Assembly (NCBI GenBank): GCA_965205265.1
Contig: CBDBGH010000003.1
Coordinates: forward strand, 1,600,001 to 1,664,000
DNA: 64,000 bases
Source: Alphaproteobacteria bacterium
GTDB lineage: Bacteria; Pseudomonadota; Alphaproteobacteria; Bin95
Direction of reading: 5' to 3'
A model generated the notes under the pieces. That model saw nothing but the letters and a program-made list of their open reading frames with translations, searched no databases and was not told the origin of the DNA. This document shows, in pieces, positions 9,637 to 58,180 of the stretch; position 1 is the first letter of the stretch; each line of letters starts with the position of its first letter. Made by a program: the position numbers and the translations under genes.

Positions 9637-9715
9637 CGCCGTGTTTGCGAAGTCCGCGCCGCTTCGTTCGGAGCGCCCGACCGCTCCCTTCTCCATCAGG
9701 CCCGGACGCCCTCTC

Positions 9716-9803
9716 CGTCATGCCCGGACTTGTTCCGGGCATCTTCCTCCACCGCTTCCGCCGGGCGACCGAATGGATGCCCGGAACAAGTCCGGGCATG
9801 ACG
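9716..9803. repeat. CGTC-tagged palindromic (REP-like) dimer
   Basis: CGTCATGCCCGGACTTGTTCCGGGCATC, a ~30-nt spacer, then the inverted copy GATGCCCGGAACAAGTCCGGGCATGACG. Confidence 0.92.
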
Positions 9804-9895
9804 ATATGAGGCATGACAGGACGGTGTCAGCAAGGCAGGGCGCAGGATCTTCAAGAGATCGCGGAATAACCGGCAAGCCCCGACCCGGCCGCCGA

Positions 9896-12211: not shown

Positions 12212-12407
12212 AGGAAGGCGATGGCTGCGGCGCGACAATCAGCTTGAGACGCTGGCGACAATCAGGATGAGACGGGGGAAGGCGGCGGCCCGGAACGGAG
12301 GGAGGGCGTAGCCCGACCGGAGTTCCGGGCCGCCGCCTCAAAAAATTTTTCCTGGACCTTCTGGCGGGGTCGGTCGGCTGGGCGAACGGTGACGTTTTTC
12401 CGAGTAG

Positions 12408-14755
<2,348 letters not shown>

Positions 14756-15016
14756 ACCGCTGCCGCCAGATCGGCCCAGCGGCCACAACACTCACGGCCC
14801 GCGGGAATCGCCTCCGCGGGCCGTCTCTTCTCCGACCCGACGGCCCCCCCGCGACAATCAAAACGCTCTCCGAAAACCTTGTTTGTCGCGCCGCGACAAT
14901 CAAAATCCGAAACCGCTTGCAATCCGCGCCCCGCGCGACAATCATCAACTCGCCGATGCCGCCGGGGAATCTCATCCTGATTGACGCGCGGCTCTCACCC
15001 AGATTGTCGCGCTATA

Positions 15017-16438
15017 GATGGCGATGTGAGCGCGGATCCGGTCCGGGTTCCAGTGCCAGATGGGACGTATCTTCAGGTCGTGTTTGGTGATCCGGAAGCT
15101 CTCCTCGACCTGCCAGAGCCCCTGGTAGTGAGCCATCACTTCGGTGACGCGCGCGTCGCGCAGATTGGTGATGACGCCGGTGAGCCCGTCCCATCGTGCG
15201 GCCTCGGCGATCTTCTCCGGGTTCACCGTGAGCCGTGCGTCGCCCTCGACGGCGATGAAGCGCTTCGCCCCGTGATTGGAGAGCAGTTCCCTGGGATTGT
15301 CGCTGCGGGCCAGCCTGTCGAGCAGGCGTTCCACCTGATGGCGGCGCTCGTGCGCGTCCTTGCGTGCGCGCTGGGGGCAGAAGACGACGATCAGGCGACG
15401 GCCCTTGTACTCCCACTCGCCGACCCGGCGGTCCTGTGAGCCCTCCAGCGGGGCATAGGTCCCGGGGTCGAGAACCTGCCCCAGCAGCGCGAGCGGCAGC
15501 TTGCGCAGCCGCGCGCCGACGACATACTCGCCGCCGATGGCGTCCATGGCGTCGAGGTTGTCGGCGCTCAGCATGCCCCGGTCGGCCACGCATACCGTGC
15601 GCTCCACCTGGTGGCGGCGCTGCATGTCCTGCAGGACCGGGACCATGCTGTGTCCCTCGTAGGTGGCGCCGGGGAAGACCTCGTAGCTGATCGGCAGCCC
15701 TTCGCGCGTCACCATCAGCGCCAGCAGAACCTGCGAGTCCTTGTGTTTGCCGTCCTTGCTGAAGCCGTGCTGGCGAAGCTCGTCCTCGGCGGCCGTCTCG
15801 AAGTAGAGCGTGGTGCAATCGAAGAAGAGGATCGCGACCGGCTCCGGCAGCAGCGACCGGCTCGCCTCGCCGACGCGCGTGCGCAGTCGCTCGATCACCG
15901 TCGCGTCGAGCTGATCCATCATCCGGTAGACCTTCTCGAGCGGAAGACTCACGCCGAAGTCCTCCTCGAGCCGGCGCACGCTGCCCCGCTTGCTGTCGGG
16001 GTTGGCTACCCGCGCCATCACCACATGGAACAGCGCGTCATGGGAGGCCCGGTAGCGCGAGCGCGGCAGCAGCGCGTCGAGGCCCAGCAGCCGGTAGATC
16101 TCGCCATAGACCTCGTGGATGCCTGTGATCAGGCGCTGCTCCTCTTCAAGCTGCTTGAGGTCGACCGGGAGTTCCTCCTTGCCGTCCCCCCGGCGGCCGA
16201 CACGGATCGCCTGCTCAGCGATCTTCTCGGGCGCAAACAATGCCGGCTGACGCTCGTCCTCCAGCTTCGCCTTGACGTACTCGCCGAGCTGCCTCAGGCG
16301 CTCGAGCTCGTCCTCGTCCATGGCCACGCCGACATGGCGGACGATGCGCTGTCGGACCTTGCCGCCGTCGCGCACGGCCTCGACGATCTGGACCGAGCGT
16401 CGCGGGCTGTTGGGGGAGGTCTTGATGCGCACGAACAT
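15017..16438 (-). pseudogene. IS1634-family transposase, interrupted by IS21 and 3'-truncated
   Basis: FFDCTTLYF, VADRGMLS, WQVEESFRITK, RIRAHIAI. The frame continues AFLA on the far side of IS21 (12225-12208). Confidence 0.88.
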
Positions 16439-20191: not shown

Positions 20192-20277
20192 CGTCATGCC
20201 CGGACTTGTTCCGGGCATCCATTTCCGCCGCCGCGACGATCCCGAGGGAGATGCCCGGAACAAGTCCGGGCATGACG
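20192..20277. repeat. CGTC-tagged palindromic dimer
   Basis: Same arms as 9716-9803 with a different spacer, plus a partial outer arm CGTCATGCCCGAACG at 20169. Confidence 0.92.
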
Positions 20278-28724: not shown

Positions 28725-28773
28725 TTATCCGCTCCGCTTGACCGTCCCTCACTATATGGGACCAATGGGAACG

Positions 28774-31611
28774 ATGACGACAGCCGAGAACCGCCCTCTT
28801 CCGGCCGACCCCGAATTGGCCGCCCGCCGTCTGGAGGACTGGCAGGCGCAGATCGGGTCGCTGGACCGCGACAGCCCGCGAGGCCGCGCAATCCGGGCGG
28901 TGCTGGGGTCCAGCCCGTTCCTTGCCGATTGCCTGCTGAGGTTCCCCGATTTTTCCCGGGACCTTGCCGCCGAAGGGCCTGACGGGCCGCTGGAGGCGCT
29001 GTTTGCGCGACTCCGGGAGCTTCCGGCCGATTGCGACAGTGCCGGCTGGATGCGGATCTTCCGGGAGGAACGCGCCCGGCTTGCAGCGGCGGTCGCCATC
29101 GCCGATGTCGCCGGCGAATGGACGCTGGAACAAGTCACCGGAACGCTGAGCTCGTTTGCGGCTGCCGCCCTCGACGCGGCCGTTCGCCACCTGCTCGCCA
29201 CCGGACGCGAATACACCGGCGCCGGGCCGGACGGTTCGGGCATAATCGTTCTCGGCATGGGCAAGCTCGGCGCCGCCGAGCTCAACTATTCGAGCGACAT
29301 CGACATCGTGCTGATCTACGACGATGCGGCTCTGCCCGTGCGGCGGCGGGACCGGACCGGCCAGACGATGGTGCGGTTCGCCCGAGACCTCGTCCGCCTG
29401 CTGCAGGAGCGCACCGCCGACGGCTATGTGCAACGGGTCGATCTGCGGCTTCGCCCCGATCCGGCCTCGACGCCGCTGGCTGTGCCCCTTCGGGCCGCCG
29501 AGGCCTATTACGAGAGCATGGGGCAGAACTGGGAACGGGCCGCCATGCTGAAAGCCCGCCCTGTGGCCGGCGATCTCGCCGCCGGGCAGGCCTTCCTGGA
29601 CTATATCCGCCCGTTTATCTGGCGGCGCAGCCTCGACTTCTGGGCCATACAGGACATCCATTCCATCAAGCGCCAGATCCACGCCCATCGCGGCCATGAC
29701 CGGCTCGCGGTCGCCGGGCACAATGTAAAGCTCGGGCGCGGCGGCATCCGCGAGATCGAGTTCTATGTGCAGACGCAGCAATTGATCTGGGGCGGCCGCG
29801 ATGTGAGCCTGCGCGCGCGCCCGACCTGCGCGGCGCTGGAGGCGCTGGTCGCGGCGGGCCATGTCGAGCGCGGCGCGGCCGACAGCCTGCGGGACGCCTA
29901 CAGGTTCCTGCGCGGCGTCGAGCACCGCATCCAGATGATCGACGACCGGCAGACCCATGAACTGCCGGATGCGGGCGGCCTTGCCGGCTTCGCGCGCTTC
30001 ATGGGTTACGGCGGGCAGGACGCCTTTGCGCCTGTGCTGCTGGGCCACCTGGACAAGGTCCGGCGGCTCTACGACAGCCTGTTCTCCGAGGCGGACACGC
30101 TGGCCGAGCCGGGCAATCTGGTGTTCACCGGCACCGACCCCGACCCGGGCACGACAACGACGCTTGCGGAACTGGGCTTTCGCAATCCGCAGCGGGTTTT
30201 CGAAATCGTCCGCGCCTGGCATTCCGGTTCGATACGGGCGACCCGAAGCGCCAGGGCGCGGGAAATCCTTACGGAACTGGTGCCGAGCCTGCTCAAGTCC
30301 CTTGCCGGCGCGCGCGAGCCGGACCGCGTGCTGGTGGATTTCGACCGCTTCCTGGCCCGTCTGCCGCTCGGCGTTCCCGTCTTCGCGATGTTCCAGACCA
30401 ATCCGCAGCTCATCGACCTCGTTGCGGAAGTGCTCGGCAACTCGCCCTTCCTCGCGGAGCACATGACCCATCATCCGGGCGTGCTCGAAGGCATACTGGC
30501 GGGCGGCGCGGCACTGGACGGCCGGGTGCGCCAGGACCTTCACAGCGCGCTCCGGGTTGCCCGAACCTACCAGGATGTCCTCGACATCGTCCGGCGCTGG
30601 GCGAACGACGCCCGTTTCGATACGGGTCTCGGCCTGCTCCAGGGCCGGCGCAGTCCACGGCAGTCCGGGGCCAGCCTTTCCGAAATCGCGGATGCCACGG
30701 TGGAGGCGCTGCTGACGGCGACGCTGGAAGAGTTCAGGGAACGGCACGGCGGCTTCCCGGACAGCAGCTTCGCCATTCTGGCCTATGGCAAATGGGGAAG
30801 CGGAGACCTGACGCTCGGCTCCGACCTCGATATGGTCGCCGTCTATGACGCGCCTCAAAAGGTAACGCATTCGGATGGCCCGAAACCTTTATGGGCTTCG
30901 ACTTATTTCAATCGCCTGATGCAACGCCTGCAAACGGCGATTACGGCCCAGACGGGAGAAGGGCGGCTCTTCGAGATCGATTTGCGTCTCCGTCCTTCCG
31001 GAAATGACGGGCCTCTGGCCATCCATATCGACGGGTTCGAGCGCTACCAGAAGGAGGATGCCTGGACCTGGGAGCACATGGCGCTGGTCCGGTCCCGCGT
31101 CGCCGTCGGACCGCCGGAATTGGCGGCGCGGCTGGACGCCATACGCATGGAAGTCCTGGCGCAGCCGCGCAGCGGCCTGCGCGAAGCCGTCCGCGACATG
31201 CGGGCGAAGATGGCGGCAGGGCGCAAGACCGGCGAGCCTTTCGACCTCAAGCACCGTCCCGGCGGCCTCATCGACCTGGAATTCCTGGCGCAATACCTGG
31301 TGCTGAACCATGCAGCCGCGCACCCGCCGATTGCGGAACGCTCCGCAGCGGCGGTCTTCCGCGCGGCACAAGCGGCCGGGCTGGCGAGCGGCCCCGCATC
31401 CTGGGAAGAACTGGCTGAAACGGCGGCGCGACTCGCGGACCTGCAGGCCCTTTTCCGGCTGTCGGGCGAAGCGCCGCCGGAGCACATGCCGGCACTGGCC
31501 CGCCTGGCGGCGGAACGATGCGGCTGTCCGGATTTCGCGGGCGTCTGCGAGCGGATCGAGCAGGACGGCGTCCTGACGCGCCGGTTCTTCGAACACCACC
31601 TAGCATGCTGA
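28774..31611 (+). CDS. glnE: Glutamine synthetase adenylyltransferase/deadenylylase
   Basis: Two NTase domains (MGKLGAAELNYSSDID; YGKWG..DL...SDLD), VDLRLRP, WERAA, GGIREIEF. Start uncertain (28738-28774). Confidence 0.94.
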   Translation: MTTAENRPLPADPELAARRLEDWQAQIGSLDRDSPRGRAIRAVLGSSPFLADCLLRFPDFSRDLAAEGPDGPLEALFARLRELPADCDSAGWMRIFREERARLAAAVAIADVAGEWTLEQVTGTLSSFAAAALDAAVRHLLATGREYTGAGPDGSGIIVLGMGKLGAAELNYSSDIDIVLIYDDAALPVRRRDRTGQTMVRFARDLVRLLQERTADGYVQRVDLRLRPDPASTPLAVPLRAAEAYYESMGQNWERAAMLKARPVAGDLAAGQAFLDYIRPFIWRRSLDFWAIQDIHSIKRQIHAHRGHDRLAVAGHNVKLGRGGIREIEFYVQTQQLIWGGRDVSLRARPTCAALEALVAAGHVERGAADSLRDAYRFLRGVEHRIQMIDDRQTHELPDAGGLAGFARFMGYGGQDAFAPVLLGHLDKVRRLYDSLFSEADTLAEPGNLVFTGTDPDPGTTTTLAELGFRNPQRVFEIVRAWHSGSIRATRSARAREILTELVPSLLKSLAGAREPDRVLVDFDRFLARLPLGVPVFAMFQTNPQLIDLVAEVLGNSPFLAEHMTHHPGVLEGILAGGAALDGRVRQDLHSALRVARTYQDVLDIVRRWANDARFDTGLGLLQGRRSPRQSGASLSEIADATVEALLTATLEEFRERHGGFPDSSFAILAYGKWGSGDLTLGSDLDMVAVYDAPQKVTHSDGPKPLWASTYFNRLMQRLQTAITAQTGEGRLFEIDLRLRPSGNDGPLAIHIDGFERYQKEDAWTWEHMALVRSRVAVGPPELAARLDAIRMEVLAQPRSGLREAVRDMRAKMAAGRKTGEPFDLKHRPGGLIDLEFLAQYLVLNHAAAHPPIAERSAAAVFRAAQAAGLASGPASWEELAETAARLADLQALFRLSGEAPPEHMPALARLAAERCGCPDFAGVCERIEQDGVLTRRFFEHHLAC

Positions 31612-31703
31612 CCGGGACGTTGGAGCGATGCACGCCATGTCCCTTTCCGCCATCTCCGTTCCTCTCATACCCGGCCCCTACCCGTCATGCCCGGACTTGT
31701 TCC

Positions 31704-32432
31704 ATTGCTGTCCGGTTTAGCCATTGGGCGAGGCTGAACGGGAGTCCGCCTGGGGTTTCGGGGGCGCGCGGCGTCTGCGATCCGCCCCTTGCCCGTGAGG
31801 CCCGAATGCCCCCTTCGACAGGCTCAGGGCAGACTCTTTCGTCATACCCGGACTTGTTCCACTGCTGTCCGGTTCAGCCGTCGGGCAAAGCCGGGCGGGC
31901 CTCGGTCGGGTTTTCGGGGGCGCGCGGCGTCCCCGGTCGGCCTCCTGTCCGTCATGCCCGAACGCCCCCCTTCGACAGGCTCAGGGCAGGCTCTTTCGTC
32001 ATACCCGGACTTGTTCCGGGTATCTCTCTCAAGCGGCTCTGCCGGGCGGCCGTATGGATGCCCGGAACAAGTCCGGGCATGACGATATGGGGGGCGGGCA
32101 TGACGGGAACAGGGCTAGGCCGCCGGGCGTCGATCCGAGTCCCGATCCCGCCGAACCCCTCGAAACCCGGTTGAATCCAGGCCATGCGCTCTGTCCACAA
32201 AATCCAAACCGGACAGCAATGGACTTGTTCCGGGTATCTCTCTCAAGCGGCTCTGCCGGGCGGCCGTATGAATGCCCGGAACAAGTCCGGGCATGACGAT
32301 ATGGGGCGGGCATGACGGGGACAGGGCCGGGCCGCCGGGCGTCGATCCGAGTCCCGATCCTGCCGAACCCCTCGAAACCCGCTTGAATCCAAGCCATGCG
32401 TTCTGTCCACCAAATCTAAGCCGGACAGCAGT
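31704..32432. mobile_element. MITE-1 copy A (about 358 bp), itself interrupted by copy B
   Basis: TIRs ATTGCTGTCCGGTTTAG / CTAAGCCGGACAGCAGT, flanking DR GGACTTGTTCC at 31693-31703 and 32433-32443. Confidence 0.85.
31861..32220. mobile_element. MITE-1 copy B (360 bp) nested in copy A
   Basis: TIRs ACTGCTGTCCGGTT / AACCGGACAGCAAT, DR GGACTTGTTCC at 31850-31860 and 32221-32231, intact internal CGTC dimer at 31997-32084. Confidence 0.85.
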
Positions 32433-32540
32433 GGACTTGTTCCGGGCATCTTCCGCCACAGCTTCCGTCGGACGGCCGCATGGATACCCGGAACAAGTCC
32501 GGGTATGACGGAGAGGACGCTACAGGAAGGATGGAACGGA

Positions 32541-33005
32541 ATGAGTTTGAACGAAGGCGACCCCGCCCCGGATTTCCAACTGCCTGCCGACGGCGGAAAC
32601 ACCGTCGCGCTTGGAGACTATCGCGGGCGCAGGCTCGTGCTCTATTTCTACCCCCGCGACGACACCCCCGGCTGCACGACCGAGGCGCAGGCCTTTCGGG
32701 ACGCATCTGAGGAGTTCGACCGGGCCGGCGCCGCCATTCTCGGCATATCCCCCGACACGCCGGCGAAACACGACCGCTTCAAGGCAAAACACGGCCTGCC
32801 CTTCTCCCTCGGCTCGGACGAAGACAACGCCATGGCGGAAGCCTATGGCGTGTGGGTCGAGAAGCGGATGTACGGCCGCACCTATATGGGCATCGAGCGC
32901 TCGACCTTCCTGATCGACGAGGCGGGCCGGATTGCGCGCATCTGGCGCAAGGTGCGCGTCAAGGGTCACGCCCAGGCGGTGCTCGACGCGCTCAACGGCG
33001 GTTGA
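32541..33005 (+). CDS. bcp: Peroxiredoxin Bcp/PrxQ
   Basis: YFYPRDDTPGCTTEA, YGRTYMGIERSTFLID. Confidence 0.93.
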   Translation: MSLNEGDPAPDFQLPADGGNTVALGDYRGRRLVLYFYPRDDTPGCTTEAQAFRDASEEFDRAGAAILGISPDTPAKHDRFKAKHGLPFSLGSDEDNAMAEAYGVWVEKRMYGRTYMGIERSTFLIDEAGRIARIWRKVRVKGHAQAVLDALNGG

Positions 33006-53317: not shown

Positions 53318-53719
53318 CGTCATGCCCGGACTTGTTCCATTGCTGTCCGGTTTAGCCATTGGGCGAGGCTGAACGGGAGTCCGCCGGGGGTTTCGGGGGC
53401 GCGCGGCGTCTGCGATCCGCCCCTTGCCCGTGAGGCCCGAATGCCCCCTTCGACAGGCTCAGGGCAGGCTCTTTCGTCATACCCGGACTTGTTCCGGGTA
53501 TCTCTCTCAAGCGGCTCCACCGGGCGGCCGTATGGATGCCCGGAACAAGTCCGGGCATGACGATATGGGGGGCGGGCATGACGGGAACAGGGCCGGGCCG
53601 CCGGGCGTCGATCCGAGTCCCGATCCCGCCGAACCCCTCGAAACCCAGTTGAATCCAAGCCATACGCTCTGTCCACCAAATCTAAGCCGGACAGCAGTGG
53701 ACTTGTTCCGGGCATGACG
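53318..53719. repeat. Single CGTC...GACG hairpin hosting MITE-1
   Basis: CGTCATGCCCGGACTTGTTCC [MITE] GGACTTGTTCCGGGCATGACG. Confidence 0.85.
53339..53698. mobile_element. MITE-1 copy C (360 bp)
   Basis: Same TIRs as copy A, DR GGACTTGTTCC at 53328-53338 and 53699-53709, internal CGTC dimer at 53475-53562. Confidence 0.88.
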
Positions 53720-58096: not shown

Positions 58097-58180
58097 CGTC
58101 ATGCCCGGACTTGTTCCGGGCATCCATTTCCGCCACCGCGATGGTCCCGAGAGATGCCCGGAACAAGTCCGGGCATGACG
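58097..58180. repeat. CGTC-tagged palindromic dimer
   Basis: Same arms, spacer similar to 20192-20277. Confidence 0.92.

What the first reader, a model, noticed from the sequence alone, without database searches (positions are those of the whole stretch)
31683..32510. Self-nesting 'matryoshka' MITE that carries its own insertion target
Seen: the 830-bp glnE-bcp gap parses exactly as three levels. (1) Host CGTC dimer left arm ending GGACTTGTTCC (31693-31703). (2) MITE-A starts ATTGCTGTCCGGTTTAG at 31704, and its internal dimer opens CGTCATACCC-GGACTTGTTCC (31850-31860). (3) MITE-B spans 31861-32220 (360 bp, ACTGCTGTCCGGTT...AACCGGACAGCAAT) with its own intact internal dimer at 31997-32084. Then the repeat GGACTTGTTCC (32221-32231), the rest of A ending CTAAGCCGGACAGCAGT (32432), GGACTTGTTCC again (32433-32443), and the rest of the host dimer. 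Each insertion duplicates the same 11 bp (7-9 bp if the terminal C/G belong to the TIR), at the same nucleotide and in the same orientation. A and B differ substantially in their left ~100 bp, so this is not a simple tandem duplication. Known: the TIRs and long DR resemble IS4-family ends, and some ISs target REPs. Inference: a non-autonomous element that delivers a fresh copy of its own safe-harbour target with every jump, allowing recursive nesting and spreading the REP. This would be a site-specific, self-renewing transposition system whose transposase lies outside the window.
Basis: partly seen in the sequence, partly recalled or inferred. Interest (0 to 1): 0.85.

Follow-up and report, generated by a model that had tools for sequence, protein, structure and literature searches.

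The report
Nested REP-targeting IS4-derived MITEs
The gap between glnE and bcp holds one small non-coding transposon inserted inside another copy of the same family, because each copy carries the palindromic hairpin that their IS4-type transposase prefers as a landing site; this is a neat new variant of a known behaviour.

Summary
The gap is a CGTC-type REP hairpin dimer. A 360-bp MITE (A) sits in it, and a 362-bp MITE (B) of another subfamily sits in A's own internal REP dimer.

Removing B and one repeat copy restores an intact A. That restored A is 98.0% identical to a single copy elsewhere.

The family is genome-wide. Of 30 single copies, 25 have matching flank repeats. Of 83 element ends, 78 abut the same hairpin.

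I found the parent. It is a 1.27-kb IS4-family insertion sequence, closest to the named family ISRel1. It has four copies with identical transposases in a congeneric genome, with the same ends, and two of them lie in the same hairpin.

This genome keeps only a 488-bp deleted remnant of that IS.

Relatives in two other bacteria show that the true termini are 5'-CA...TG-3' and the duplication is 9 bp, not 11.

A second nested composite has been copied to five loci.

REP targeting by an IS4-family element is already known (ISRm22). The new points are the carried target and the recursive nesting.

The parts
28738..31611 (+). glnE (glutamine synthetase adenylyltransferase). The repeat block replaces its last codons, and the gene now ends at a new TGA.
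   Evidence: NF010706, 977.1 bits. Relatives end ...HHLEEG* where this genome reads ...HHLAC*.
31612..31682 (.). Spacer that belongs to the inserted block. It holds a degenerate REP 'head' (TCATACCCGG at 31665-31674).
   Evidence: Absent from the orthologous gap of relatives. Repeat family D6.
31683..31702 (+). Left arm of the host CGTC-type REP dimer. It ends with the first copy of A's 9-bp target duplication, GACTTGTTC (31694-31702).
   Evidence: (inverted pairs I9-I11).
31703..31859 (+). MITE-A, left part: the terminal repeat C-ATTGCTGTCCGGTTTAG, the a-arm, and the left arm of A's internal REP dimer (31840-31859). It ends with the first copy of B's duplication (31851-31859).
   Evidence: aA 1-136. 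100% identical in its first 95 nt to the single copy C3:2816198-2816557.
31860..32221 (+). MITE-B, complete, 362 bp with termini: C-ACTGCTG...CAGCAAT-G. It has an a-arm, an internal REP dimer and a b-arm.
   Evidence: flank repeat with 0 mismatches. 95.8% identical over 360 nt to C3:4082393-4082752.
31997..32084 (+). B's intact internal REP dimer (two inverted CGTC REPs). It is an unoccupied copy of the target.
   Evidence: Folds as one hairpin, -34 kcal/mol, z = -9.55. Inverted pair I4.
32222..32433 (+). MITE-A, right part: the second copy of B's duplication (32222-32230), the rest of A's internal dimer, the b-arm, and the terminal repeat ...CTAAGCCGGACAGCAGT-G.
   Evidence: A rebuilt from 31704-31860 plus 32232-32432 is 98.0% identical over 358 nt to C3:2816198-2816557, with no break at the junction.
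32434..32510 (+). Second copy of A's duplication (32434-32442), then the loop and right arm of the host REP dimer.
   Evidence: (I1, I21).
32541..33005 (+). bcp (thiol peroxidase). Its start is conserved with relatives.
   Evidence: NF006960, 161.6 bits. Alignment of starts.
53338..53699 (+). A second, single copy of the MITE (A's subfamily) in this window. It sits in a REP monomer, with GACTTGTTC at 53329-53337 and 53700-53708.
   Evidence: (row 1653339). 96.9% identical to the rebuilt A.
9716..9803 (+). Unoccupied REP dimer, i.e. an empty target. Others lie near 20192-20277 and 58097-58180.
   Evidence: Paired + and - hits of the 11-mer. Folds at -42.1 kcal/mol within 9700-9820.

Best explanation
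The glnE-bcp gap records two successive transposition events by a family of about 360-bp non-autonomous elements (MITEs).

The parent. The MITEs derive from an IS4-family insertion sequence whose closest named relative is ISRel1. That IS is about 1270 bp long, has 5'-CA...TG-3' termini and 17-bp terminal inverted repeats (CACTGCTGTCCGGTTTA), and encodes one DDE/YREK transposase with an N-terminal DUF4372 domain.

The reaction. The transposase makes cuts staggered by 9 bp, centred on the apex of a palindrome. Its strongly preferred target here is the CGTC-type REP hairpin CCCG|GACTTGTTC|CGGG. The 9 bp are the 5-nt loop plus two stem pairs on each side. Insertion occurs in either orientation.

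The element. Each MITE consists of:
- the left IS end plus about 85 bp of subterminal IS sequence (the b-arm);
- a complete REP dimer with some flanking DNA;
- a stretch of unknown origin that ends in the right terminal repeat (the a-arm).

Each insertion therefore splits one hairpin and brings in two new ones.

The order of events here. First, a REP dimer block entered the very short glnE-bcp spacer. Second, MITE-A landed in its left arm. Third, MITE-B, of another subfamily, landed at the same nucleotide of the left arm of A's internal dimer. Alternatively, A and B nested elsewhere and moved here as one unit.

What is shown: the nesting, the flank duplications, the target preference, the parent IS and its family.

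What is inferred:
- The chemistry (cut-and-paste through a Tn5/Tn10-like pathway), from what is established for IS4-family members.
- That the transposase, rather than a host factor, reads the palindrome.
- That the copies in this genome are now stranded, because no transposase gene is left here.
- Any selective benefit of carrying the target.
For: Nest.
- A's arms match single copies. C3:2816198 is 100% (a-arm) and 97% (b-arm); 1653339 is 99/95; 1670119 is 98/98; 1080309 is 97/97.
- B's arms match 4082393 (99/97), 3017735 (99/95), 1292592 (96/95) and 1529586 (95/95).
- A against B is 77% in the first 95 nt.
- The rebuilt A is 98.0% identical over 358 nt to a single copy, and the alignment is continuous across the insertion point.

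Transposition signatures.
- Of 30 single full-length copies, 21 have perfect flank repeats and 4 have one mismatch.
- Variant targets are duplicated as variants: GGATCAAGTCC in two copies and GGAACGAGTCC in one.
- A copy at a non-REP site has the perfect flank repeat GCGCCGGCCGC.
- Both orientations occur: 14 against 11 of the 25 copies.
- 78 of 83 arm ends abut the hairpin.

Parent IS.
- G010 has four copies whose transposase is 100% identical over 385 aa. Three of them were compared as DNA and are identical over 1266 nt.
- The ends are ACTGCTGTCCGGTTTA. Two copies lie in REP dimer arms, flanked by GGAACAAGTCC or GGACTTGTTCC. Two lie elsewhere, flanked by GCGCCGTGGCC and GCAGCGACGGC.
- The ORF hits NF033592 (IS4 family) at 243.6 bits against a cut-off of 115, and Pfam DUF4372 plus DDE_Tnp_1.
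- Y(2)R(3)E(6)K is visible in ...YKRRWAVELFFRWVK....
- It is 70.6% identical to the protein annotated 'IS4-like element ISRel1 family transposase' in R. etli CFN42 p42a. The right end of that copy, TAAACCGGACAGCAGTG, is identical.
- G000:C3:1981754-1982241 is an internally deleted copy with the same ends and N- and C-terminal transposase fragments.
- The MITE b-arm aligns with the IS left end over about 87 nt. The a-arm shares only the 15-16-nt terminal repeat.

9-bp duplication and a conserved REP-apex habit.
- All 21 copies of 74-75%-identical ISs in two other alphaproteobacterial genomes end CA...TG.
- 12 of the 21 have perfect 9-mers. In three of these (L055, L056, L067) the 9-mer is perfect but the 11-mer is not.
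- Most of them sit at the apex of those hosts' own REP-like palindromes.

Recurrence.
- A second nested composite is 91.2-99.8% identical over 400 nt at five loci with unrelated outer flanks.
- There is a nest in G006 (L005).

Orthologous site.
- In 11 congeners with both genes on one locus, the aligned glnE 3' and bcp 5' ends are at most 44 nt apart, against 931 here. In the six I read, the stop-to-start spacer is 6-7 nt.
Against: - No intact transposase of this kind is in this genome (0 matches at E <= 1e-60). Mobilisation here is historical and inferred. Yet some copies are 99.8% alike, which needs a recent source of transposase that I cannot point to.
- Five of 30 single copies have inverted rather than direct flanks. 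I explain these by recombination between copies, as proposed for ISRm22 (PMC1525189), or by templated correction of the quasi-palindrome. Neither was tested.
- For the copies of this genome, the 9-bp versus 11-bp question cannot be settled directly, because every target here reads G-N9-C. The 9-bp call rests on relatives.
- The public runs are kept only as short contigs, and none bridges the nest. Assembly of this exact locus is therefore not independently verified.
- No allele with an intermediate state (dimer only, or A only) was found. The nearest relative's contig breaks inside the REP just upstream of bcp (L012).
Confidence: 0.85

Rival explanations
1. The nest is real, but carrying the target is a by-product and not an evolved 'self-renewing' strategy. 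On this view, a REP dimer happened to be the filler DNA when the IS was miniaturised. Nesting then follows simply from the transposase's liking for REP apexes, with no benefit to the element.
For: - Stand-alone dimers are numerous (64) and more diverse (median 87.5% identity to the carried one) than the 17 flanked by both arms (97.7%). The REP population therefore does not depend on the MITE.
- There are 254 intact 17-nt hairpins (126 + 128), which far outnumber the carried ones. Extra targets add little.
- Two mini-copies lack the dimer (C3:626537-626702 and 3924910-3925190).
- A nested insertion does not add a new genomic locus.
Against: - The dimer is kept in all subfamilies and in seven other species of the genus.
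- Nested composites stayed mobile: five loci.
- In a REP-poor new host, a carried target could matter.
- None of these points discriminates strongly.
Confidence: 0.55
2. The doubled left and right modules arose by unequal crossing-over or replication slippage between the 21-bp CGTCATRCCCGGACTTGTTCC repeats of a single inserted MITE, not by a second insertion.
For: - The layout H-T-[a-arm]-H-T-[a-arm]-H-T... is what such slippage would produce.
- Loci with two left modules and no right module exist (C3:912360, 2533099, 3968893).
Against: - The two left modules are 77% alike in their first 95 nt. Each matches a different subfamily at 99-100% elsewhere.
- The outer pair of arms and the inner pair each reproduce the a/b pairing seen in single copies.
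- One-sided loci are explained by deletion between the 78-bp direct repeats that a nest creates.
Confidence: 0.03
3. The nest is an assembly artefact: dispersed repeat copies were wrongly joined in the glnE-bcp gap.
For: - The region is made wholly of repeats.
- Public runs give only contigs of at most 85 nt inside it, and none bridges it.
Against: - The genome is in 3 contigs.
- In run X18, contigs with 0 differences enter from glnE to 31710 and leave from 32487 into bcp. A 79-nt contig with 0 differences spans 32371-32449.
- The same architecture recurs at five other loci and in another species.
- The in-silico excision is exact to the base.
Confidence: 0.05
4. The elements are moved by a single-strand (HUH/RAYT, IS200/IS605-like) or an RNA-guided IS110-type recombinase, as other REP-associated elements are.
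For: - Both arms have subterminal hairpins (read from the end sequences).
- The target is a hairpin.
- IS110-family elements are the commonest REP-targeting ISs (PMC1525189, passages read).
Against: - No Y1_Tnp is present in this genome. In the genus, 1 of 17 genomes has a match, and that is only a 50-position fragment.
- The elements have 17-bp terminal inverted repeats and a 9-bp duplication, and they insert in both orientations. None of this fits those families.
- A DDE IS with identical ends exists.
Confidence: 0.02

Closest known systems
ISRm22 of Sinorhizobium meliloti (IS4 family, subgroup IS4Sa), described as REP-targeting by Tobes & Pareja 2006 (PMC1525189; passages read) and in 'IS4 family goes genomic' (PMC2266710; section 7 and Table 1 read)
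   Same: - An IS4-family IS of an alphaproteobacterium.
- All of its copies lie in REP elements, inserted at the axis of the palindrome.
- Some copies have non-matching direct repeats, which the authors attribute to recombination between copies.
   Different: - The nearest S. meliloti homologues of the present transposase are only about 39-40% identical, and they are annotated ISRm16 family. I could not confirm which of them is ISRm22.
- The authors report 6-bp repeats for ISRm22; here the duplication is 9 bp.
- In the passages I read, the paper describes no MITE derivative, no carried REP and no nesting.
ISRel1 (annotation 'IS4-like element ISRel1 family transposase', Rhizobium etli CFN42 plasmid p42a)
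   Same: - 70.6% amino-acid identity over the whole transposase.
- An identical right terminal repeat, TAAACCGGACAGCAGTG.
   Different: - The p42a copy shows no left terminal repeat within 400 bp. Its target habit could not be read.
- No paper on ISRel1 itself was found.
CGTC-tagged REPs of alphaproteobacteria (Di Nocera et al. 2013, PMC3733652; abstract and passages read)
   Same: - The hairpin here has the CGTC tag, a 9-bp stem that opens with AT, and a 5-nt loop.
- It occurs mostly as head-to-head dimers.
- No RAYT partner is present. [quoted passage not shown]
- The paper also notes REP dimers sitting inside longer palindromes in two species.
   Different: - The paper links no DDE transposase or MITE to such dimers.
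- Here the flanking palindrome is identified as the ends of an IS4-family element.
REPIN-RAYT systems (Bertels & Rainey 2011, PMC3116915; search listing and abstract only)
   Same: Two inverted REPs form a long hairpin, in many extragenic copies.
   Different: - No RAYT was found.
- The unit that moves here is a TIR-bounded MITE with a target duplication, not the dimer itself.
Self-insertion and nested multimers of plant MITEs (review PMC5172404, passage read; it cites Jiang & Wessler 2001)
   Same: MITEs are found inserted into copies of their own family, as independent insertion events.
   Different: - Those are eukaryotic Tourist/Stowaway elements with TA or TAA targets that are common everywhere.
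- Here the nesting goes to one defined nucleotide of a structured target that the element carries.
IS231 and its MIC231 cassettes in the Bacillus cereus group
   Same: - An IS4-family element with marked insertion specificity and direct repeats of 10-12 bp (PMC2266710, Table 1 and passages read).
- Recalled, not from a call: its target is GGG(N)5CCC, and its non-autonomous derivatives carry passenger DNA between IS ends.
   Different: - A different subgroup, with CAT ends.
- A Gram-positive host.
- The passenger is a gene, not the element's own target.
REP-targeting IS110/IS1111 elements (IS621, ISPpu9, ISPa11; search listings and abstracts of PMC11208160, PMC11187229, PMC12288879)
   Same: Site-specific insertion into REPs.
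   Different: - They use a DEDD recombinase guided by an RNA.
- They have no long terminal inverted repeats of this kind and no 9-bp duplication.

Membership tests
IS4 family (parent IS, as found in congener G010) | One transposase ORF with a DDE domain and the Y(2)R(3)E(6)K signature | tested here: met
   NF033592 at 243.6 bits against a cut-off of 115. PF01609 at 106.2 bits. YKRRWAVELFFRWVK is read in the ORF. The definition is taken from PMC2266710.
IS4 family (parent IS, as found in congener G010) | Target duplication of about one helical turn (8-13 bp) and 5'-CA ends in most subgroups | tested here: met
   A 9-bp duplication and constant CA...TG termini in 21 of 21 copies of 74-75% relatives. 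The flanks in G010 fit both 9 and 11 bp.
MITE (non-autonomous derivative of that IS) | Terminal inverted repeats shared with an autonomous IS | tested here: met
   The MITE ends C-AYTGCTGTCCGGTTYAG compare with the IS ends C-ACTGCTGTCCGGTTTA. The b-arm aligns with the IS left end over about 87 nt.
MITE (non-autonomous derivative of that IS) | Small, multi-copy, flanked by target duplications, with no transposase gene | tested here: met
   Lengths of 305-426 bp. Of 30 single copies, 25 have flank repeats with at most 1 mismatch. The interior consists of arms plus a REP dimer.
MITE (non-autonomous derivative of that IS) | An autonomous partner in the same genome (usual, not obligatory) | tested here: not met
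   Only a 488-bp deleted copy is present. The intact IS was found in 1 of 37 genomes of the order, with fragments in a second.
CGTC-type REP / REP dimer (the target) | Short GC-rich palindrome with a CGTC tag, an 8-9-bp stem, a 4-5-nt loop, many extragenic copies, mostly head-to-head dimers | tested here: met
   The sequence CGTC-ATRCCCGGA-CTTGT-TCCGGGYAT. The arm folds at -8.8 kcal/mol (z = -4.73) and the dimer at -34 kcal/mol (z = -9.55). 313 exact cores. 111 full-length dimer hits. Criteria are from PMC3733652.
REPIN-RAYT system | A RAYT (Y1 transposase) gene associated with the repeats | tested here: not met
   PF01797 gives 0 matches in this genome. In the genus, 1 of 17 genomes has a match, a fragment of 50 profile positions.
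IS200/IS605-type or IS110-type REP-associated elements | No terminal inverted repeats, no long duplication, insertion specific to one strand or orientation | tested here: not met
   17-bp terminal inverted repeats, a 9-bp duplication, and both orientations (14 against 11).
IS4Sa subgroup of the IS4 family | Size 1150-1750 bp, CA ends, direct repeats of 8-10 bp (Table 1 of PMC2266710), and clustering of the transposase with subgroup members | tested here: inconclusive
   Size (about 1270 bp), ends and the 9-bp repeat all fit.

The most novel reading that the evidence does not exclude
An IS4-derived MITE and the CGTC-type REP dimer form a two-part selfish system. The MITE is a vehicle that moves a REP dimer, a class of repeat for which no transposase is known. 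The dimer in turn is the MITE's landing pad. Each jump therefore seeds new safe sites. Copies can stack without limit, and stacked composites remain mobile. This would be one concrete route by which CGTC REP dimers enter new places and perhaps new genomes.
Probability: 0.3. Interest if true: 0.7.

Novelty: new variant of a known kind. Interest (0 to 1): 0.55.

Why it matters
- It adds a documented case of an IS4-family element that reads the apex of REP hairpins. This time the case includes the non-autonomous offspring, the parent IS in a sister species, and the habit conserved in relatives with different host REPs.
- It shows a bacterial MITE whose passenger is its own preferred target. That explains base-exact recursive nesting and mobile nested composites.
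- It bears on an open question about CGTC-type REPs, which lack a known transposase (PMC3733652). Here at least one lineage of REP dimers is demonstrably carried around by a DDE transposon.
- Practically, the pair (the transposase from the congener and the 17-bp ends) is a candidate for testing how a DDE transposase recognises a palindromic or cruciform target.
- It does not reveal a new kind of recombination chemistry.

Tried and rejected
- DNA search of the MITE against the plasmid collection gave only three weak REP-like hits (26-28% of the query) in Skermanella plasmids, and no element.
- Rfam gave two sub-threshold hairpin look-alikes: miRNA families at 28.8 and 20.9 bits against gathering scores of 197 and 74. 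I rejected both.
- None of the 18 resident repeat or IS representatives whose ends I read has the MITE's terminal repeats. The candidate 2.76-kb 'long element' at C3:2360075-2362833 is another IS (ends CCTGACTTCGACGGTTG) inserted beside duplicated MITE pieces.
- L010 (G002), picked as a possible IS end, is a solo b-arm.
- Reads: one search and one lay. All four runs are short contigs. No contig bridges the nest. The joints listed (31857>32072 and 32432>32490) fit other copies of the family elsewhere in the genome, so they say nothing about alleles of this locus. I draw no conclusion on habitat or strain from these runs.
- Literature: four searches for a bacterial MITE that carries or nests in its own target returned plant, animal or REPIN papers only. 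The search for ISRel1, ISRm22 and ISRm16 found no paper on ISRel1; its hits in PMC10132070 are ISRel10 and ISRel26. These searches cover open-access papers and bioRxiv only.
- The origin of the MITE's interior (how a REP dimer came to lie between IS ends) was considered. Options were a composite of two ISs, filler DNA from gap repair, or a REP insertion into an IS. None could be tested.
- Structure, complex and protein-database tools were not used, because the family assignment was clear without them.
Full report
**Observation.** In order:
- CGTCATGCCC-GGACTTGTTCC (31683-31703);
- an element that starts ATTGCTGTCCGGTTTAG (31704);
- a second CGTCATACCC-GGACTTGTTCC (31840-31860);
- a second element, ACTGCTGTCCGGTT...AACCGGACAGCAAT (31861-32220), with an intact palindromic dimer at 31997-32084;
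- GGACTTGTTCC again (32221-32231), followed by the rest of a dimer and an arm that ends CTAAGCCGGACAGCAGT (32432);
- GGACTTGTTCC (32433-32443) and the rest of a third dimer, up to 32510.

The 11-mer occurs 18 times in the window against 0.00 expected. The end motif occurs 7 times against 0.15 expected. The repeat finder recovers the 157-bp left module twice and the 212-214-bp right module two and a half times. It also shows that the two left modules are 77% alike over 81 nt (31683-31763 against 31840-31920) but 98% alike in their last 52 nt. The neighbours are glnE and bcp.

**The target.** The repeated palindrome is CGTC-ATRCCCGGA-CTTGT-TCCGGGYAT. It has a CGTC tag, a 9-bp stem that opens with AT, and a 5-nt loop. 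It usually occurs as two inverted copies about 32-46 nt apart.
- One arm folds at -8.8 kcal/mol (z = -4.73). The dimer folds at -34 kcal/mol (z = -9.55).
- The genome holds 313 exact cores, all on the chromosome. It holds 254 intact 17-nt hairpins (126 + 128, at most 1 mismatch) and 111 full-length dimer hits.
- This fits the CGTC-tagged REPs described for alphaproteobacteria. Those are mostly head-to-head dimers and 'apparently lack a dedicated transposase' (PMC3733652, abstract and passages read).
- Accordingly, no Y1/RAYT gene is in this genome. In the genus, 1 of 17 genomes has a match, and it is only a fragment.

**The element family.** I annotated the genome with the two a-arms, the two b-arms and the dimer. 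This gives 123 clusters.
- The element is asymmetric. One end continues ...GGTTYAGCCATTGGG... (the a-arm). The other continues ...TTAGATTTGG.GGACAG.GCGCATGGC.TGGATTCAA (the b-arm).
- Thirty single full-length copies (305-426 bp) could be paired. Twenty-one have perfect flank repeats, four have one mismatch, and five have inverted flanks. Two of the 30 (C3:51795 and 5422853) lie in a 24.5-kb segmental duplication and are one event.
- Variant targets are duplicated as variants: GGATCAAGTCC in two copies and GGAACGAGTCC in one. The repeats are therefore true target duplications, not merely parts of the REP.
- Among the 25 copies with direct flank repeats, the a-arm lies next to the CTTGT reading of the loop in 14 and next to ACAAG in 11. 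Insertion is therefore independent of orientation.
- Of 83 arm ends that reach the terminus, 78 abut the hairpin core (at most 2 mismatches). A complete copy at C3:636223-636583 lies in a non-REP site with the perfect flank repeat GCGCCGGCCGC.

**Nest or duplication?**
- The outer arms (A) match the single copies C3:2816198 (100% a-arm, 97% b-arm), 1653339 (99/95; this is the second copy in this window), 1670119 (98/98) and 1080309 (97/97).
- The inner arms (B) match 4082393 (99/97), 3017735 (99/95), 1292592 (96/95) and 1529586 (95/95).
- A against B is 77% in the first 95 nt of the a-arm.
- I cut B and one repeat copy out in silico. This gives a 358-nt element that aligns with C3:2816198-2816557 at 98.0%. 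Its only gap is a 2-nt length difference in a G run, far from the insertion point.
- Unequal crossing-over between the 21-bp repeats would give near-identical modules, not two subfamilies correctly paired outside and inside. I reject it.
- Loci with two left modules and one or no right module (C3:840710, 3218486, 2533099, 3968893, 912360) are what deletion between the 78-bp direct repeats of a nest would leave.

**The parent.**
- None of the 18 resident repeat or IS representatives that I examined has these ends.
- C3:1981754-1982241 is a 488-bp element with the same terminal repeats. Its interior reads as the N-terminal and C-terminal pieces of a DDE transposase. No fuller copy is in the genome.
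- I searched the genus with the C-terminal piece and found four copies in G010. The element is about 1270 bp, with ends C-ACTGCTGTCCGGTTTA, and has one ORF.
- The ORF hits IS4-family model NF033592 at 243.6 bits (cut-off 115), and Pfam DUF4372 plus DDE_Tnp_1. The Y(2)R(3)E(6)K signature is visible.
- The four transposases are 100% identical over 385 aa. Three of the copies are identical as DNA over 1266 nt.
- Two copies sit in arms of REP dimers, flanked by GGAACAAGTCC or GGACTTGTTCC on both sides. Two sit elsewhere, flanked by GCGCCGTGGCC and GCAGCGACGGC.
- In the whole order (37 genomes), the intact IS was found only in G010, with fragments in G011. MITE-like matches occur in 12 of 16 congeners. 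Copies with an internal dimer were seen in loci of seven of them.
- The MITE b-arm aligns with the IS left end over about 87 nt. The a-arm shares only the 15-16-nt terminal repeat.

**Name and relatives.**
- By tblastn, the closest annotated protein is the 'IS4-like element ISRel1 family transposase' of R. etli CFN42 p42a (70.6%). The right end of that copy is identical.
- S. meliloti homologues annotated ISRm16 family are about 39-40% identical.
- A scan of species-representative genomes found 143 relatives.
- I read the flanks in two alphaproteobacterial assemblies, with 11 and 10 copies (75% and 74% identity).
  - All 21 copies end CA...TG.
  - Twelve have perfect 9-bp flank repeats. Three more have one mismatch.
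  - In L055, L056 and L067 the 9-mer is perfect while the 11-mer is not.
  - Most copies split the apex of those hosts' own palindromes, for example tgcccg|TGCTTGACA|cgggca and tccttg|GGCTTGACC|cgagga.
- The true duplication is therefore 9 bp, and the termini are the 5'-CA typical of most IS4 subgroups (PMC2266710, Table 1 and section 7 read).
- In this genome, every target reads G-N9-C. That is why it looks like 11 bp.
- The REP-apex habit is a conserved trait of this IS clade, and the host REP sequence differs from host to host.

**How it most likely works.** This step is an inference from what is established for the family. IS231A, IS10 and IS50 transpose by cut-and-paste (PMC2266710, Background).
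- A transposase dimer holds the two 17-bp ends and attacks the target with a 9-bp stagger.
- The stagger is symmetric about the loop, and orientation is random. This suggests that a symmetric feature is recognised: either the palindromic sequence or an extruded hairpin or cruciform.
- Each MITE carries a complete dimer. An insertion therefore destroys one perfect hairpin and brings in two.
- The internal dimer is used as a target:
  - the focal nest;
  - a second composite (outer and inner elements of two other subfamilies) that is 91.2-99.8% identical over 400 nt at five loci with unrelated outer flanks, one of them a non-REP site, so the composite itself was copied;
  - inner copies sitting in decayed outer elements at C3:1080110-1080758 and 1306541-1307191;
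  - a nest in the right arm of an internal dimer in G006 (L005).

**The locus in relatives.**
- In 11 congeners where both genes lie on one fetched locus, the aligned glnE 3' end and bcp 5' end are at most 44 nt apart, against 931 here.
- In the six I read, the stop-to-start spacer is 6-7 nt.
- The whole block is therefore an addition, including the 'host' dimer and 71 nt to its left. It replaced the last codons of glnE.
- The nearest relative (G014, 91% in bcp) has a contig that starts inside a REP right arm just upstream of bcp. It probably shares at least the dimer.

**What speaks against the reading, or stays open.**
- There is no transposase in this genome, yet some copies are 99.8% alike.
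- Five of 30 copies have inverted flanks. They could be recombinants between copies, as proposed for ISRm22 (PMC1525189). They could also be templated correction of the 5-nt loop within the 38-bp quasi-palindrome formed by the REP arm plus the terminal repeat. I tested neither.
- The public runs are kept as short contigs, and none bridges the nest.
- The stand-alone dimers are more diverse than the carried ones (median 87.5% against 97.7% identity to B's dimer; 64 and 17 dimers). The MITE is therefore not the main source of REP dimers.
- Whether the focal nest formed in place, or arrived as a composite whose donor was lost, cannot be told.

**Comparison with what is known.**
- REP targeting by ISs of five families, including the IS4-family ISRm22 at the palindrome axis, is published (PMC1525189).
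- CGTC REP dimers without a transposase, and REP dimers lying inside longer palindromes, are published (PMC3733652).
- Self-insertion of MITEs is known in plants (PMC5172404).
- I found no paper on a bacterial MITE that carries its own structured target and nests in it (open-access papers and bioRxiv only).
- I therefore rate it a new variant of a known kind. Interest is 0.55. The mechanism class is ordinary. The carried target, the exact recursion, the mobile composites, and the link between a DDE transposon and CGTC REP dimers are worth a short description and a simple bench test.

Noticed in passing
G000:C3:1981754-1982241: A 488-bp internally deleted copy of the parent IS. It has both terminal repeats and N- and C-terminal transposase fragments, and it sits in a REP. 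It is the only trace of the transposase gene in this genome.
   Followed up: yes
window 12216-15020: One copy of a 2.8-kb repeat present about 27 times in the genome, presumably an IS. Its ends are unrelated to the MITE.
   Followed up: partly
G000:C3:2360184-2362121 and about 60 other places: A 1.93-kb IS with ends CCTGACTTCGACGGTTG. It is very abundant: about 60 weak tblastn hits at 30% identity to the IS4 transposase C-terminus. One copy sits beside duplicated MITE pieces at C3:2360040-2363030.
   Followed up: partly
G000:C3:36590-61081 = C3:5407582-5432139; C2:1-14907 = C2:28300-43206: Large segmental duplications (24.5 kb on the chromosome; 14.9 kb at both ends of the 43-kb replicon). The first one carries a MITE copy, which is therefore counted twice. 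They may explain the 7.28% 'contamination' figure.
   Followed up: no
G000:C3:520845, 999734, 1728068, 2816198, 3620504: Five full-length MITEs whose flanks are inverted rather than direct (CTTGT on one side, ACAAG on the other). Possible causes are recombination between copies or templated flipping of the 5-nt loop.
   Followed up: partly
G000:C3:626537-626702 and C3:3924910-3925190: Mini-copies in which a b-arm is joined directly to an a-arm, without the internal REP dimer. They are either deletion derivatives or an older form of the element.
   Followed up: no
G000:C3:2533098 and C3:2540412: An a-end and a b-end 7.3 kb apart. Both face the same way, and their flanks are nearly reverse complements of each other (CGACGCAATAC and GCATTGCGTCC). 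This is the signature of an inversion between element copies.
   Followed up: no
G000:C3:186075-186548: A solo a-type end in a REP. Immediately inside it lies a 136-aa helix-turn-helix-like ORF that reads towards the end. It could be a passenger or a chimera.
   Followed up: no
window 31599-31611: Insertion of the repeat block replaced the last codons of glnE (...HHLAC* here, ...HHLEEG* in relatives). It also moved bcp about 0.9 kb away from glnE.
   Followed up: partly
many loci, e.g. window 31665-31694; G000:C3:3218462-3219221: Short tandem runs of the REP 'head' (CGTCATRCCC), spaced 9-14 nt apart, beside many dimers and inside MITE arms. There are up to six in a row.
   Followed up: no
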